64,000 nucleotides of DNA from Octopus sinensis (lineage: Eukaryota). This document shows, piece by piece, positions 6,001 to 54,000 of the stretch. The stretch's first letter is position 1; each line of letters begins with the position of its first letter. The stretch is from assembly GCF_006345805.1 (NCBI RefSeq), contig NC_043001.1:68324001-68388000 (forward strand). The letters are read 5' to 3'. The position numbers are program-made.

Positions 6001-9000
6001 TAATATATATATTTATGTATATATATATATAAAAAAATAAAGACCCCCTTCGGTCATGAATACCATGGGATTGCACCTAGAAAGTTGCCCTCCTAGAAAC
6101 AAGTCTGGGCAAGGTTGTTTATGGAAGGCCAGCAGTCACCCATGCATACCGGCCTCCCCTCTCCACGCCACCAGTGTTATCCAAGGGAAAGACAAGGTCG
6201 ATACAGCTTGGCACCAGTGACGTCGCAAAACTCATTTCTACAGCTGAGTGAACTGGAGCAACGTGAAATAAAGTGCTTTGCTCAAGAACACAACACGCAG
6301 CCCGGTCCGGGATTCGAGCTCACAACCTCACGATCGTAAGCTCGATGCTCTAACCACTGAGCATGCGCCTATATATATATATATATATATATATATATAT
6401 ATAAATATATATATATATATATATATATAAGTTATATATATAATATATATATATATGTATATATGTATATATAAATGTATATATATATATATATATATGT
6501 AATATATATATATATATATATATATATATATTATATATATATATATATATAGTATATAATATTAGATATATAATATATATTATATATATATATATATATA
6601 TATGTATATATATATATATGTATATATATATATATATATATATATATATACCTATATATATATATATATATATATACATATATATATATATATATAATAT
6701 AGATACATATATATATATACCTATATATATATATTATATATATATATATATATATATATATATATATATATATAATATACATATATATACATATAATATA
6801 TATATATTCTATATATATATATAATATATATATATATACATATATATATATACATATATATATTACATATATATATCCATACATATTGAAGCTCTCCTTT
6901 CTGGTTCACATCCACAGACTAGTTTAATATACTCCACACACACACCCCACATAGCCCCTACGCACACACACATACACACACGCACATGCACACACATACA
7001 CACACACATAACACACACACACACAGCATATACATACACGCACACACGTACATACGCATGCGCACACATACTTGAAACTGCCAGTCAAACACCTTTCTAC
7101 TGATCATTCCTCTACGCATATGCGAAGAGATACACAACTACACAAAAAGACAGTCACAGCTGCTACCGTGCTATTGTATTCTTCCTACAACATTTTAAGC
7201 GACACAAATTTCACTCACACATACACATATAAACAGCCAAAACGACACACTCGCCATACACACAACACTTAGAACACAAATGCGCACACACACGTGCTAT
7301 TACACACACACGTGCTATTACACACACACACACACACACACACACACTCACACACACAGACTTGCGCGCATGCACACATACCTCCTTCCCTGACACTCCC
7401 CTGTCTTAGAAAGAATGTTTTATTCACCCATTCCCTTCCGGTCATTTCAAAATGTAACCGCATGTGAATCGTTGGCGATTTTTTTCCTCCGTCTTCCTTT
7501 CTATTGGACTTTCCTCTGTTACCAAAGAAGAGCGTTGCTCGAAACGTTAAACAATTTTCTTTCCTTCCCTCAGCGTCTGCTAATACTTTACATGAACCAT
7601 GTCCTCGCATTGTTGTGTTTTTTGTTTCGATTTACTATCATTATTAATAATACATATATATATTATTAATGATAATAATATGACACTCGCATGGAACACA
7701 TGCATGCACCCCACACACCTACATGTATACATATATATGCATTCATACACATGTACACATATACATATCCGCACACACGCACACACAAGTATATATACCC
7801 ATACGCGCACAATTATGTTCATATACATGTCTCTATACGCACACGCAAAATATGCAGGGTTGAAGGTAATGTACAGAAAAAATATATAAAAATATATATA
7901 AAAATATGTAAAAATATAAAAAAATATATGTAAGAAATGAAAAGCGTGTACGTGGACACAATATAAAAAGCAGGTTCTACCTGTGATCTGTGTACGTGCG
8001 CGTGTGTGCACGTATGTACATGCGCGCACACGCGGATTCTATGAGCGTGGGTTTACCTTCTTTGAGTATTTTTACTATCACTTTCTATTCGGGTAACTTC
8101 CTTTTATTTAACGGTCATTTTCATAGCATTTTTATTTGTCTTAATAACTGAAGAGATGCCGGAGCAGAATTCCGCCCCGACATCCGAAACTCTGAGTTTT
8201 ATTATGGCAACCGACTCTAATTGTCACATATTATATATATATATATATATATATAATATGTGACAAAACGAGGACATTTGAAATAGTAACCGCGAGTTTA
8301 CAAGTCTGACTTTGTGCGGACGTCCTAGTATGCAGTCCTGCAAATTCTATTCATCTGGACGGTCGCACCGATGATCTACGGACATTTACGTAAGTAAAAT
8401 TACGTAATATATTAATAGTGAAACATGTATGTGAATAATCCATATTTTTATTGCTTTTTCTTTTGTCTTCCTCGATTACGTTTTGGTCGTTTTGCTAAAT
8501 TTTTCTTGAGAACATTTCTTAGTGGTAAGACCATAGCGGATCTATTTCTAGCATAAGGGTGTCCACATAATGGTTTCCCTCTAATATGTATATAATACAA
8601 TTTCACTGAGCCTTCAGTTTTTTATATGCTAGACCACTGATGTGAAATCGATGTTAATTTAATTAATATCTAATTTCTCACACTCATTATATATTACGGA
8701 GATGTACTTGCATAGCCAGTGACTTGATCGGAGATCGTGTGCTAGAACGAAAACAATTGCAGCGTGGAAGGTGTTTATAAGCCATTTAAGAAACACACAA
8801 AAACCGTTAGGTTCACTTCAACATTTAAACACCTTCCACGCTGCAATTATATATATATATATATATATATATATATATATATATATATATATATATATAA
8901 AATTAATTAAGGGTAGAAATTGATATTTATCAATTAAGACCAGTGGTCTAGCCATATAAAAAAGAATCCGAAGATTAAAATATTTATATATACCAATTAA

Positions 9001-51000: not shown

Positions 51001-54000
51001 ATATATAATATATATATATATATATCTATATATATATATATACCTATATCTATCTCTCTATCTATCTATCTATCTATCTATCTATCTATCTATCTATCTA
51101 TCTATCTATCTATCTAATCTATCTATCTATCTATCTATCTATCTATCTATCTATCTATCTATGTATCTATCTATCTAATCTATCTATCTATCTATCTATC
51201 TATCTATCTATCTATCTATCTATCTATCTATCTATCTATCTATCTATCTATATAATAATAATAATAATAATAATAATAATAATAATAATAATAATAATAA
51301 TAATAGTAGTAGTAGTAATAATAATAATAATAATAATAATAATAATAATAATAATAATAATAATAATGATAATAATAATAGGGAATATGATTCGAAGCTT
51401 ACAGGGAAAATTCAGTTTTGCAATACTAAATCAAATTTCACAATATATAATATATGTATACAAATTAGAGAAAAACCACCATGTAGCAATTCAACAATTG
51501 ATATACTTCAATCATACCATACAGAAAAAAATTAAAGATACGATAAAATATTTACCTAGAACTAAATAAAGTAGAAATAATAAATAGTATATAATTAGTA
51601 AATAGACTACACGTGTTTCGTGGGAATATTTTCAAAATGATAACAGTAAAATCAATTCAATTTAAATATAGTCACTCATCAGGCCCAAGATAAAAACAAT
51701 AAACTAATTAATAAATGTTATTATTATAATATATATATATATATATATATATATACCTATTATCTTATAAGAAAATATAAGTATATTTTTTTTAACTCTT
51801 GAACGATAATCTTAACGATAATCTTGAAATCTACAAAGCATATTAGGGCTCTTGAATGAATTTCAATTTTCAAATAATGCCATAAATTTTCAATGGGGTT
51901 CATGTCAGGTGACTGACTTGGCCATTCTAATAATTTTATATTGTTATCTACAATCCATTTTTTTGGTAGACTTCACCATGTGCTTAGGATTGTTATCCTG
52001 TTCTAAAACCCACCCTTCACAAAGCTGGAGCTTATCTACAGAGTCCCATAAATCATTGTTCAAAATATTTTGGTACATCTCTGCATTCATTCTACTATCT
52101 ATCTCATGTAAATTGCCAGTACCATTTGCAAAGAAACACCCCCACACCATGATGTTGCCACCTCCAAACTTTACGGTAGGAATTGTGATTTTCAGCAAAT
52201 AGGGTGTACCATCTTTCCTCCGAACATGCCTACGCGAATTTCGTCGAAACAATTCAATTTTCGACTCGTCTGTCCATAGAACATTTTCCCAGAATGTATC
52301 AGATTTATCTTTACGTTCATAAACAAATTTTAAACAGGCATCTCTATGCCTTTTAGTCAACAGCAGAGTTTTTCTAGGAGAGCATGATTTCATTTCATTC
52401 CTATGAAGTTCATTGCTGATTGTTCATAGTGTAACACTAGTCCCTGAAGCTAACAAATCTTTTTTCACCCCAAAATATTTATACTTGTATATAACTTCAT
52501 TAGTTACTATAATTTATTAGTTTCTTTTGCATATTCTTAGTTTATGCCTGTGTATGCATATATAGAATTGGTATATCCTATTTATGTTCATCAGAAATTA
52601 AATAAATAAAGAATTTTGACATGTACTAATATTTATTTCCCCCCACTGTATATCAACACAGCCTCCTGCCACCCATCTATCATGTTCAGAAGCTTGGTGA
52701 AAGGTGTCAGCAAGAGGAACTCGAATCTGTCATCTTGCCAAGAAATTTTCAAGCAGTGTCCTCCACCTACTAAACGAGGCTTTGGCTCCTTGTGGGTTTA
52801 AGGACCGCATCATCTACATGCCGGGCCCTAACACCCTCAGAAGGAAGTGCCACCGAAATATCGTTTGGTTTGCTCCCACTTTCTCCCTCAATGTAAAAAG
52901 GCATTTCCCTTAGGCTAGTAGACAAGCACTTTACACAATCACATAGGTACTGACGTCTGCTCAACAGACAACCTAAGAGACTCTTTTAGCTGCGCCCCCA
53001 AATTTAGAGCATTTTAGTTGATATCCATAGGGCACGAGCAGAGGTGGGATGCTCATGCAGGAACTACAACAGCTGCCCAGTGGGAGGCCAGTGCAAACCC
53101 AAAGGAATCGTATACGATGTTGAGGTGGTATCTGACCCTAATAGCAGCAGCAACTTTTCCAGCAGTTACGCCAGTAGCTTAAATAGCAGAAACACCATCG
53201 TTAATGATAAAGCTAATAATAAAAACTAGTCACGTACTGTTTTCTAATCTATTATCTCCTCTCCCTCTTTCTTTACGAAATCTCTTGGTGTTCTTTTATT
53301 TATTTATGGCTTACTCTTAACATGGTCCTCTAACATCTGATCCTGTTTCCTCCTGATTAACCTGCTTACCTCCCTTCCCTCGTTCCATTATTCTTCACTG
53401 TAAAATATTTTTTCTTCTCTTTCTCACTTACCCCATTACAGAGTTATCTTACACCACAATTTTTCATTTCATCGCTCCGTGAGGAAGACCCCAAATTCTC
53501 GCTTCCATAGTCTACATTTTAAATCTTTTCTTAAAACTGAACCAAGACCTTTCCAGTGTCCAAAATTTGAGCGTATGCTCAGTATTGCCCTCCATTTTAG
53601 GAAGGTTGTGTGTGGGTTGATGGAAGCTGAATGACGGCATAAAGTCTTCCATTCTGGTTGTCAGTGTTGTCAAGGGACTTCTAATTCGATCCTTTTGCAT
53701 TCTCATTCTCAATGCTTTTATCTACAAGAATACGTAAAGAGACGCAAGATTTCGATTGAAATTCATTTTGTCTGAAATTGTTCACCTGAAAACTGACCTT
53801 CTAACCACTTCAATCTAACAATAAACAATTTAACTGCAAGCCTTAATATCTCGACAAAATCTGTCAATGATAAAAGAACGCAAGAGAACACTACAGTAGA
53901 CAGTCAAGTGGAATGAAGAGATGTCACCAAAATGGACCTTATAGTTTGATGATGCGGTAAACTTAAGACAAATATTTCAAGTATATCTATTTCTCTCTCT

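What the first reader, a model, noticed from the sequence alone, without database searches (positions are those of the whole stretch)
7380..51730. Dense, multi-family population of hammerhead-ribozyme non-coding retroelements (retrozyme or non-autonomous Penelope-like system)
Seen: about 12 foldable type I hammerheads (8142, 8363, 9145-, 9798, 10300, 11473, 11951, 13052-, 19508, 22420-, 22965, 51603-) plus weaker ones (7527, 11222, 13361, 37353, 37787-, 43523-). They lie in at least 8 sequence-distinct, ORF-less modules, mostly 100-270 bp upstream of an end that abuts (TA)n. Helix sequences differ completely between families while pairing and the catalytic core are kept, which is covariation-like. 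Established: minimal type I hammerheads mark the pseudo-LTRs of Penelope-like elements and animal non-LTR retrozymes. Inference: this genome hosts a large radiation of self-cleaving, ORF-less parasites mobilised in trans by PLE RT/GIY-YIG. I cannot verify whether it has been described in cephalopods.
Basis: partly seen in the sequence, partly recalled or inferred. Interest (0 to 1): 0.88.

Follow-up and report, generated by a model that had tools for sequence, protein, structure and literature searches.

The report
Hammerhead-ribozyme mini retroelements at TA repeats
This stretch of an animal genome holds about ten families of short, gene-less mobile elements that each carry a self-cleaving hammerhead ribozyme motif of the kind already known from Penelope-like retrotransposons, so it is a clear new example of a known phenomenon rather than a new one.

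Summary
A canonical type I hammerhead descriptor finds 2 loci against 0.02 in shuffles. A relaxed descriptor finds 8 loci in 5 families against 0.085. Five of the six "weaker" sites are decayed copies of families C and D; 43523- is unsupported. Rfam models do not detect any site significantly (best 13.3 bits against a gathering score of 34).

All modules lack ORFs (longest 62 aa) and are AT-rich. They show the published Penelope-like (PLE) insertion signature: partial tandems, head-to-head inverted copies and 3' ends abutting (TA)n (10 of 16 against 19.6% background). They also show published PLE hammerhead quirks, namely a palindromic helix III and an extra nucleotide after A9. Family A (~0.5 kb, 2.3 tandem units plus one inverted full unit, three identical 5' ends) is a true short non-autonomous, retrozyme-like element. 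Most others cannot be told apart from truncated PLE ends. The window holds no PLE gene, and the host lineage is unresolved. Verdict: new members of a known kind.

The parts
8142..8231 (+). Module M8148: hammerhead 8142-8204 (helix I 6 bp, helix II 4 bp with one bulged C before G12, helix III 3 bp); short tail ending at (TA)12
   Evidence: constrained fold 4.6 kcal/mol above MFE
8363..8650 (+). Module M8368: hammerhead-like motif 8363-8434 with CCGAUGA core (U4 to C), U.U at the base of helix II, 6-nt palindromic helix III. The 3' limit is uncertain. Its tail shares a 15-nt motif with the family A tail
8848..8899 (.). (TA)26 abutting the 3' end of the inverted family A copy
8897..9403 (-). Family A, full-length inverted copy (~0.5 kb); hammerhead 9145-9210
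9388..9609 (+). Family A, 5'-truncated copy (3' ~220 bp of the unit), joined head-to-head to the inverted copy through a short microhomology
9620..10112 (+). Family A, full unit (493 bp, GC 0.34, longest ORF 56 aa); hammerhead 9798-9862 whose ribozyme fold equals the MFE; predicted cleavage 9857/9858, mid-unit
10113..10520 (+). Family A, third tandem copy; hammerhead 10300-10364. It ends at an internal TA-rich site of the unit and is followed by (TA)7
11472..11664 (+). Family B copy 1 (193 bp). Homology starts at the first base of helix I. Hammerhead 11472-11529 (helix I 7 bp, U.U at the base of helix II, helix III 4 bp). The only site listed by Rfam Hammerhead_1 (13.3 bits, not significant)
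11950..12140 (+). Family B copy 2 (96% identical to copy 1, same 5' end, different flanks); hammerhead 11950-12007; ends at (TA)10
7490..7680 (+). Family C copy, hammerhead core lost
11190..11356 (+). Family C copy: CCGACGA core (U4 to C), extra A after A9, helix II 4 bp, 4-nt palindromic helix III, poor helix I; ends at (TA)n
37350..37481 (+). Family C copy: CUGACGA kept, helix II and GAAA decayed; ends at (TA)20
12994..13155 (-). Family D copy with intact core letters; hammerhead 13052-13139 (helix II closed by only 2 bp, 8-nt palindromic helix III)
13345..13505 (+). Family D copy, head-to-head with the previous one; GAAA lost
37742..37876 (-). Family D copy, core decayed, palindromic helix III kept; ends at (TA)n
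19508..19655 (+). Module E: strictly canonical minimal hammerhead 19508-19553 (helix I 4 bp, helix II 5 bp, 8-nt palindromic helix III); tail ends at (TA)n at 19656. The two-molecule cofold MFE is the double hammerhead
22351..22467 (-). Module F: hammerhead-like motif 22420-22467 with CCGAUGA core (U4 to C), bulged A before G12, self-complementary helix III (with G.U); ends at TA-rich repeat
22574..22752 (+). Module G, upstream 5'-truncated copy (pLTR-like), ending at the same 3' terminus as the terminal copy
22753..23330 (+). Module G, ~0.58-kb unit; hammerhead 22965-23057 (helix I 6 bp, 8-nt GC palindromic helix III, long helix II hairpin not closed at the core); ends at (TA)21
51381..51687 (-). 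Module H: strictly canonical by descriptor; hammerhead 51603-51687 (helix I 5 bp with 2 G.U, helix II 3 bp with a ~50-nt loop, 8-nt palindromic helix III); tail ends at an (ATT)n array

Best explanation
The window holds about 17 copies, in about 10 unrelated sequence families, of short (90-600 bp), AT-rich, ORF-less retroelement insertions. Each carries a type I hammerhead motif of the 'minimal / PLE-type' kind.

Shown:
- The motifs are far more frequent than chance.
- The copies sit as partial tandems, head-to-head inverted pairs and single units whose 3' ends abut (TA)n.
- Old copies have lost the core, as neutrally decaying transposon copies would.
- Family A is a complete ~0.5-kb element with a defined 5' end. 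Families B and D also have recurrent 5' ends close to the ribozyme.

Inferred:
- The copies were made by target-primed reverse transcription by a Penelope-like RT/GIY-YIG enzyme supplied in trans. Priming was at (TA)n, and template jumps (or rolling-circle copying of a circular RNA) produced the tandem and inverted arrangements.
- The hammerhead cuts multimeric or dimerised transcripts after the UH site. Families with a 3-4-bp helix III (A, B, M8148) could act as monomers. Families with an 8-nt palindromic helix III (D, E, F, G, H) would need two copies to form the double hammerhead.
- Family A fits the definition of a non-LTR retrozyme. The single copies are either monomeric offspring of such elements or 5'-truncated PLE termini.
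For: Excess over chance:
- Strict descriptor: 2 loci against 0.02; 0 of 200 shuffles reach 2.
- Relaxed descriptor: 8 loci in 5 families against 0.085.
- Decoy cores in the real sequence stay near chance, apart from the U4C variant.

Features not demanded by the descriptor but published for PLE hammerheads (PMC4209133, passages seen):
- Perfect 6-8-nt self-complementary helix III in 6 of 10 families.
- An unpaired nucleotide between A9 and 10.1 in families A and C.
- Motif pairs on opposite strands at 232 bp (D), about 600 bp (A) and about 510 bp (F/G).
- U.U at the base of helix II (family B) has a cleaving precedent in axolotl retrozymes (PMC7229834, passage seen).

Folding:
- The family A ribozyme fold is its MFE, and E lies within 1.4 kcal/mol of its MFE.
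- The E, F and G two-molecule cofolds form the 8-bp intermolecular helix III (3 of 6 tested).

Architecture:
- Family A is one inverted full unit, then a 5'-truncated copy, a full copy and a further copy. Three copies share the same 5' end, and both outer ends lie on (TA)n.
- G is a partial tandem with a shared 3' terminus.
- D is a head-to-head pair.
- B has two copies, 96% identical, with the same 5' end and different flanks.
- (TA)n lies downstream of 10 of 16 copies against a 19.6% background, P = 2e-4.
- All modules are ORF-less (<=62 aa) with GC 0.26-0.43.

The same architecture is described for PLEs (PMC8557442, passages seen). A 2026 preprint argues that animal retrozymes are non-autonomous PLE derivatives, with consensus lengths of 51-972 bp and monomer shares from 0 to 1 (10.64898/2026.07.22.740005; abstract and sections 12, 14, 16 read).
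Against: - No Rfam hammerhead model reaches its threshold. There were 0 gathering hits in the window. No hammerhead appears among the 150 listed of 213 E<=10 hits. There was none in 8050-12100, 19400-19650 or 9770-9890. Only family B was listed, at 13.3 bits against a gathering score of 34, with E = 1.2 in a 101-base search.
- Only 2 of 12 main sites are strictly canonical. The relaxed descriptor was written after seeing the data.
- Two sites have C at the normally invariant U4. D and G lack a closed helix II base.
- The constrained ribozyme fold lies 2.5-7.4 kcal/mol above the MFE for 8 of 10 sites folded.
- D, H and M8368 do not form the intermolecular helix III in the cofold MFE.
- The family A cleavage site lies mid-unit, so cleavage does not define the unit ends seen in the DNA.
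- No PLE RT or GIY-YIG sequence was found in the window. Only 30 of 81 ORFs >=110 aa were scanned; I left out the other 51 by eye as microsatellite-derived.
- Published PLE min-HHRs cleave poorly in vitro. No activity, expression or copy-number data exist here.
Confidence: 0.7

Rival explanations
1. Every module is just a 5'-truncated terminal piece (pLTR or 3' end) of an ordinary autonomous Penelope-like element. No dedicated non-autonomous or retrozyme lineage exists.
For: PLE insertions are described as highly 5'-truncated, and single min-HHRs as 'probably related to truncated PLEs'. The hammerhead lies near the 3' end in PLEs, as it does here (33-294 nt from the end). Modules E, F, H and M8148 are single copies in the window with no defined 5' end. 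G has only one tandem junction.
Against: Family A shows the same 5' end three times (two tandem junctions and the inverted copy), only ~0.5 kb from the 3' end and with no ORF. The two family B copies share one 5' end while their flanks differ. The three family D copies begin within about 20 nt of each other. Random 5' truncation of a 3-4-kb element should not repeat its end points.
Confidence: 0.2
2. The modules are SINE-like passengers of a LINE (for example the APE-type LINE in the window). The (TA)n is the LINE-type simple-repeat tail, and the hammerhead is incidental.
For: An APE+RT LINE lies at 16119-19062(-), next to module E. In all 10 single or terminal copies whose 5' flank I inspected, the simple repeat is seen only on the 3' side (sequence printed).
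Against: Head-to-head inverted pairs and partial tandems are the published PLE signature, not a LINE/SINE one. Hammerheads of this minimal type are documented in PLE termini and retrozymes. No module shares sequence with the LINE 3' end in the self-BLAST.
Confidence: 0.05
3. The motifs are chance look-alikes in AT-rich, hairpin-rich, repeat-rich DNA.
For: The bare core is not enriched window-wide. Rfam finds nothing significant. The GAAA-plus-palindrome half-motif is only weakly enriched (12 against 6.0 +/- 2.5).
Against: The full descriptor gives 2 loci against 0.02, and 8 loci (5 independent families) against 0.085. Decoy cores in the real sequence stay at chance. The motifs co-occur with (TA)n ends, with PLE-type architecture, and with extra published PLE-HHR features not required by the descriptor.
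Confidence: 0.02

Closest known systems
Minimal type I hammerheads (min-HHR) in the pLTRs of Penelope-like elements (Cervera & de la Pena 2014, PMC4209133; passages seen)
   Same: Type I topology. Short helix I (4-7 bp here). Short helix III with a palindromic 15.2-16.2/loop 3 (6 of 10 families). An unpaired nucleotide between A9 and 10.1 (families A, C). High sequence heterogeneity between families in one genome. Pairs 100-700 bp apart on opposite strands. Many single copies.
   Different: No RT/GIY-YIG ORF lies between or next to the motifs in this window. Families A, B and M8148 have a real 3-4-bp helix III hairpin, not a minimal one. G10.1-C11.1 is not general here (A-U in E and F, U.U in B and M8368). 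Three families carry C at position 4.
Animal non-LTR retrozymes (Cervera & de la Pena 2020, PMC7229834, passages seen; Li, Clavereau & Pollet 2026 preprint 10.64898/2026.07.22.740005, abstract and sections 12, 14, 16 read)
   Same: ORF-less, low-GC units of a few hundred bp with one type I hammerhead per unit. Family A is a same-strand tandem of 2.3 units. Unit sizes of 90-600 bp fall within the 51-972 bp reported. Monomeric copies are reported too. The proposed dependence on PLE enzymes is the same inference.
   Different: Only family A is tandem with two or more hammerheads on one strand. Its 502-bp period exceeds the ~170-400 nt typical of invertebrate retrozymes. The arrays here are tiny (at most 2.3 units). 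The family A unit ends seen in DNA do not coincide with the cleavage site. No circRNA or expression evidence exists.
PLE insertion architecture: pLTR partial tandems, adjacent inverted 5'-truncated copy, (TA)n target bias (Craig et al. 2021, PMC8557442; passages seen)
   Same: Family A (inverted copy plus tandem copies, both outer ends on (TA)n). G (upstream truncated copy sharing the 3' terminus). D (head-to-head pair). 3' ends on (TA)n in 10 of 16 copies.
   Different: The units are 0.1-0.6 kb with no ORF, against 3-4 kb coding elements. The (TA)n bias was reported there chiefly for Naiads, which lack canonical hammerheads. In single copies here (TA)n is seen only on the 3' side.
Rfam Hammerhead_1 (RF00163)
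   Same: Same core and helix order. The model aligns end to end on family B at my coordinates.
   Different: The score of 13.3 bits is far below the gathering score of 34. The other sites are not listed at all at E<=10.

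Membership tests
Hammerhead ribozyme, type I | Conserved core C3-U4-G5-A6-N7-G8-A9 ... G12-A13-A14 ... U16.1-H17, in the order helix I 5' strand / core / helix II / GAAA / helix III / UH / helix I 3' strand | tested here: met
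The other two main loci (8363, 22420-) and the weaker site 11222 carry C at position 4.
Hammerhead ribozyme, type I | Three helices closing directly on the core | tested here: inconclusive
   Strictly met at 2 of 12 main loci. Met with a 1-nt bulge or mismatch at the base of helix II at 6 more. Not met at D (2 bp) or G (internal loop).
Hammerhead ribozyme, type I | Score at or above the Rfam gathering threshold for a hammerhead model | tested here: not met
   0 gathering hits. The best sub-threshold hit is 13.3 bits against 34, for family B only. Nothing for E or A in small-region searches.
Hammerhead ribozyme, type I | Self-cleavage after H17 | not testable with these tools
   Needs in vitro transcription or RNA end mapping.
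PLE-type minimal hammerhead (Cervera & de la Pena 2014) | Very short helix III with palindromic 15.2-16.2 / loop 3, allowing a double hammerhead | tested here: met
   6 of 10 families (D, E, G, H 8-nt; M8368 6-nt; F 8-nt with G.U). Self-duplex energies are -3.4 to -13.3 kcal/mol. The cofold MFE forms it in 3 of 6. Families A, B and M8148 have 3-4-bp hairpins instead.
PLE-type minimal hammerhead (Cervera & de la Pena 2014) | [quoted passage not shown] | tested here: inconclusive
   Present in family A (U) and family C copy 11222 (A). Absent in E, H, D and G.
PLE-type minimal hammerhead (Cervera & de la Pena 2014) | Location in the terminal repeats of an element encoding RT plus GIY-YIG endonuclease | tested here: not met
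   No RVT or GIY-YIG match next to any motif. The RVT_1 matches in the window belong to an APE-type LINE (30 of 81 ORFs >=110 aa scanned). Whether longer coding relatives exist elsewhere in the genome is not testable here.
Non-LTR retrozyme (Cervera & de la Pena 2020) | Short same-strand tandem repeats, each unit with a type I hammerhead | tested here: inconclusive
   Met for family A (period ~502 bp, 2.26 units, 2 hammerheads on + plus 1 inverted). Not met for the other 9 families. G is a partial tandem with a single hammerhead.
Non-LTR retrozyme (Cervera & de la Pena 2020) | No ORF, no LTR/PBS/PPT, low GC (<45-50%) | tested here: met
   Longest ORF 25-62 aa and GC 0.26-0.43 in all 15 spans measured. 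I did not search for PBS or PPT.
Non-LTR retrozyme (Cervera & de la Pena 2020) | Expression as linear and circular monomer RNAs | not testable with these tools
   No transcript data.
Penelope-like element insertion signature (Craig et al. 2021) | Partial tandem (pLTR), adjacent inverted copy, 3' end at a (TA)n microsatellite | tested here: met
   A, G, D. (TA)n downstream of 10 of 16 copies against 19.6% background.

The most novel reading that the evidence does not exclude
These are a genome-specific swarm of miniature PLE parasites in which the hammerhead sits at or within about 20 nt of a defined 5' end (families B and D, and C approximately). The (TA)n at their 3' ends is then not a pre-existing target but a tail laid down or extended by the telomerase-related PLE reverse transcriptase. 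On this reading the elements seed much of the (TA)n microsatellite load of this genome.

The asymmetry fits: 0 of 10 single or terminal copies show (TA)n on the 5' flank (sequence printed), while 10 of 16 have it downstream.

A linked oddity is that three unrelated families carry C at the normally invariant U4 (2 full-descriptor loci against 0.033 expected). This could mark a tolerated or deliberately attenuated core, not simple decay.
Probability: 0.12. Interest if true: 0.6.

Novelty: new member of a known kind. Interest (0 to 1): 0.3.

Why it matters
Hammerheads in PLE termini and in animal retrozymes are well documented, so the phenomenon is not new. The window still has value as a compact, well-resolved example. 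Ten unrelated hammerhead-bearing families lie in 44 kb. At least one of them (A) is clearly a short non-autonomous element, yet it shows the full PLE insertion signature of inverted plus tandem copies on (TA)n.

The 2026 preprint that links retrozymes to PLEs states that it did not examine non-vertebrate retrozymes (Discussion). Architecture-level evidence of this kind from an invertebrate-like genome would extend that link. My searches of the held library found no paper describing retrozymes or PLE hammerhead families in cephalopods. The searches were 'retrozyme'+'cephalopod', 'hammerhead ribozyme'+'cephalopod' and 'hammerhead'+'octopus'+'ribozyme'. The only relevant item is a count of 235 Rfam Hammerhead_1 loci in the giant squid genome (PMC6962438, passage seen). 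I could not confirm that the window is from a cephalopod.

A practical lesson follows: Rfam-threshold annotation misses every one of these motifs, so genome annotations based on Rfam alone will undercount them.

Tried and rejected
Rfam: six searches gave no significant hammerhead. In one search only 150 of 213 rows were listed, dominated by microsatellite-driven pseudo-miRNA hits. I treat this as a real negative for membership by Rfam's criterion, not as evidence that the motifs are absent.

Host lineage: the LINE ORF (17394-18602-) gave only 2 hits at 26-35% identity, unnamed ENA proteins, which I did not use further. The ESM Atlas gave eukaryotic LINE-like clusters with mixed phyla (Chordata, Annelida, Mollusca). 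Lineage is unresolved, and I stopped there.

Half-motif scan (GAAA plus a 6/8-nt G/C-containing palindrome plus H): 12 observed against 6.0 +/- 2.5. This is too weak to call decayed elements on its own. On that basis 43523- is rejected.

Covariation statistics and a home-made covariance model: not run. Any alignment of these sites would be fitted to the structure that was used to pick them, so the result would be circular. The shuffle and decoy-core controls were used instead.

tRNA scan: 0 genes. The ~130-bp dispersed repeat is therefore not shown to be tRNA-derived.

Not checked:
- No eukaryotic genome, Repbase or Dfam collection is on hand. The prokaryotic genome contigs and the phage, plasmid and E. 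coli collections are irrelevant and were not searched. The closed collections (metagenome contigs, viral contigs) were not touched. Copy number, homology to catalogued PLEs and empty sites therefore stayed unchecked.
Supplementary file S1 of PMC8557442 (PLE family list, including cephalopods) and the supplementary figures of PMC4209133 and PMC7229834 could bear on whether these families or core variants are already catalogued.
- 51 of 81 ORFs >=110 aa were not scanned against Pfam. I left them out by eye as microsatellite-derived.

Full report
**1. What is there**

The window has no N and is AT-rich (GC about 0.22-0.49 per 2 kb). It is crowded with microsatellites, especially (TA)n.

I delimited these spans: 8142-8204+, 8363-8434+, 9145-9210-, 9798-9862+, 10300-10364+, 11472-11529+, 11950-12007+, 13052-13139-, 19508-19553+, 22420-22467-, 22965-23057+ and 51603-51687-.

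**2. Is it more than chance?**

The seven-base core alone is not enriched window-wide. There are 17 on + and 12 on -, against roughly 11-13 per strand by my own arithmetic from base composition. Seven of the 17 + strand cores fall in 8148-13366.

The full motif is another matter.
- A strict type I descriptor finds 2 loci (19512+, 51682-). The mean in 200 block-wise dinucleotide shuffles is 0.02, and none reaches 2.
- A relaxed descriptor allows one unpaired or mismatched nucleotide at the base of helix II. I wrote it after seeing the candidates, which is a caveat. It finds 8 loci in 5 unrelated families, against 0.085.
- As a control in the real sequence, I ran the same descriptor with each of 18 single-mismatch cores. 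Seventeen give 4 loci in all against about 2 expected.

**3. Quality of the individual motifs**
- E (19508) and H (51603-) are canonical by descriptor.
- Family A (three copies) has one extra U after A9. Family B (two copies) has a U.U at the base of helix II. M8148 has a bulged C before G12.
- D (13052-) closes helix II with only 2 bp. G (22965) has a long helix II hairpin separated from the core by an internal loop.
- M8368 and F have C at position 4.

Thermodynamics:
- The ribozyme fold is the MFE for A and lies 1.4 kcal/mol above the MFE for E. It lies 2.5-7.4 kcal/mol above for the other eight folded.
- Six families have a perfectly self-complementary 6-8-nt helix III.
- In two-molecule cofolds E gives exactly the double hammerhead. 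G and F also form the 8-bp intermolecular helix. D, H and M8368 do not.

Rfam does not support membership by its own criterion:
- There are no gathering-level hits.
- No hammerhead appears among the 150 listed of 213 permissive hits.
- Nothing appears around A or E even in 121- and 251-base searches.
- Family B is the only listed site, at 13.3 bits against a gathering score of 34.

**4. The 'weaker' sites**
- 7527, 11222 and 37353 are homologous to each other (family C). They carry progressively decayed versions of one hammerhead.
- 13361 and 37787- are decayed copies of the 13052- family (family D).
- This is what neutrally decaying transposon copies look like.
- 43523- has no core, and its half-motif is at chance level. 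I reject it.

**5. The modules**

All are ORF-less (longest stop-to-stop ORF 25-62 aa) with GC 0.26-0.43.

Family A:
- The unit is ~0.5 kb.
- One full inverted copy (8897-9403) is joined head-to-head to a + strand array.
- The array consists of a 5'-truncated copy, a full copy (9620-10112) and a copy that ends at an internal TA-rich site (10520).
- The two outer 3' ends abut (TA)26 and (TA)7.
- The same 5' end occurs three times.
- The predicted cleavage site (9857/9858) lies in the middle of the unit.

Other families:
- G has an upstream 5'-truncated copy that ends at exactly the same 3' terminus as the terminal copy, which abuts (TA)21.
- D is a head-to-head pair plus a third copy 24 kb away. 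All three start within about 20 nt upstream of the core.
- B has two 96%-identical 193-bp copies. Their homology begins at the first base of helix I, and their flanks differ.

Ten of 16 copies have a (TA)>=6 array starting 40-400 nt downstream of the core, against 19.6% of random positions (P = 2e-4).

**6. What else is in the window**

The RVT_1 (reverse-transcriptase) Pfam matches belong to an APE-type LINE at 16119-19062(-); a sub-cutoff zf-RVT match lies at 57992-58411(-). There are also Tc1/mariner remnants. I found no GIY-YIG or PLE-type RT in the 30 of 81 ORFs >=110 aa that I scanned. The host lineage could not be resolved.

**7. Comparison with what is known**

Cervera & de la Pena 2014 (passages seen) describe minimal type I hammerheads in PLE terminal repeats. 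Their features are a short helix I, a palindromic 15.2-16.2/loop 3, an unpaired nucleotide between 9 and 10.1, dual motifs 100-700 bp apart on opposite strands, great heterogeneity within a genome, many single copies 'probably related to truncated PLEs', and weak dimer-dependent cleavage in vitro.

Craig et al. 2021 (passages seen) describe the PLE insertion signature: partial tandems forming pLTRs, an adjacent inverted 5'-truncated copy, microsatellite and especially (TA)n bias, and the hammerhead near the 3' end.

Cervera & de la Pena 2020 (passages seen) define non-LTR retrozymes as low-GC tandem units with type I hammerheads. They report a cleaving axolotl variant with a U.U at the base of helix II.

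Li et al. 2026 (preprint; abstract and sections 12, 14, 16 read) argue that retrozymes are non-autonomous PLE derivatives, with consensus lengths of 51-972 bp and monomer shares from 0 to 1. They state that non-vertebrate retrozymes were not examined.

The giant squid genome paper lists 235 Rfam Hammerhead_1 loci (passage seen).

Everything seen in the window fits inside this framework.

**8. Most likely mechanism**

Shown: motif excess, architecture, lack of ORFs, (TA)n association, decay of old copies, and defined short 5' ends for A, B and D.

Inferred: the copies are products of PLE-type target-primed reverse transcription supplied in trans.
- Priming on (TA)n would be helped by TA-rich stretches near the element's 3' end. 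The two different 3' end points of family A are both TA-rich sites.
- Template jumps, or rolling-circle copying of a circular monomer, would produce the tandems.
- Second-strand events would produce the inverted copy.

The ribozyme would process multimeric transcripts. A, B and M8148 could in principle act as monomers. D, E, F, G and H would need a second copy.

I cannot decide between linear-template jumping and circle copying for family A. A one-unit-long inverted copy is expected under both.

**9. Verdict**

Its specific claims (retrozyme status, trans-mobilisation by PLE enzymes, a large radiation, cephalopod origin) are only partly testable here.

Two small oddities deserve follow-up. One is the recurrent U4-to-C core in three unrelated families. 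The other is the strictly 3'-sided (TA)n at single copies.

Noticed in passing
8368+, 22463-, 11228+ (cores): Three unrelated families carry C instead of the normally invariant U4 (CCGAUGA / CCGACGA). Two of them pass the full descriptor, against 0.033 expected, while the other 17 single-mismatch cores are at chance. Whether this is recurrent decay, a tolerated variant or an attenuated core is unknown.
   Followed up: partly
5' and 3' flanks of single copies (M8148, B1, B2, C11222, C37361, D37850, E, F, G, H): (TA)n is seen on the 3' side only. None of the 10 printed 5' flanks holds a (TA) array. That is unexpected if the elements simply landed inside pre-existing (TA)n arrays.
   Followed up: partly
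16119-19062 (-): APE-type LINE remnant (Exo_endo_phos plus RVT_1) split over at least four ORFs by frame breaks. Its closest database proteins are only 26-35% identical.
   Followed up: partly
31361-32999: Tc1/mariner-like element: ~230-bp terminal inverted repeats (31361-31587 against 32999-32766, 91%) around a DDE_3 ORF fragment at 32182-32667.
   Followed up: partly
5582-5703, 19958-20074, 20140-20258, 26050-26168, 26235-26353, 36987-37104, 48936-49013(-), 54984-55133(-), 62745-62862: A ~130-bp dispersed SINE-like repeat with at least 9 copies (mean column identity 63%), sometimes in tandem pairs. ARAGORN calls no tRNA in it. It is unrelated to the hammerhead modules.
   Followed up: partly
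13600-14001: ~400-bp near-perfect palindrome (91% self-complementary, inner arms 97%). It causes the sub-threshold MIR2863 hit. MITE-like or a foldback, lying just downstream of the family D pair.
   Followed up: no
11418-11829: 56-nt terminal inverted repeats (98%) bracket a 412-bp segment. Family B copy 1 sits immediately after the left arm, as if inserted into a MITE-like element (I14).
   Followed up: no
8753-8850: ~100-bp hairpin (inverted repeat) between module M8368 and the (TA)26. It gives sub-threshold miRNA-model hits.
   Followed up: no
8560-8580 and 9560-9580 / 10060-10080: The tail of M8368 and the tail of family A share a 15-nt motif (TATGCTAGACCACTG) followed by a TTAATT-rich end. 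G also ends in a TTAATTAATT-rich stretch. This may be a common 3' recognition module.
   Followed up: no
55172-56550; 45412-45629: A 1.4-kb (ATT)n array of about 459 units, and a GC-rich (CGCCGC/CGCCAC)n array.
   Followed up: no
759-1394 and 41287-41742: Two segments repeated in inverted orientation 40 kb apart at 87-90% identity. This is another unclassified dispersed repeat.
   Followed up: no
51944-52423 (-); 57992-58411 (-): Sub-cutoff Pfam matches to a Tc3-type transposase HTH (26.6 bits against 31.5) next to module H, and to zf-RVT (21.8 against 27.5). These are further decayed transposon pieces.
   Followed up: no
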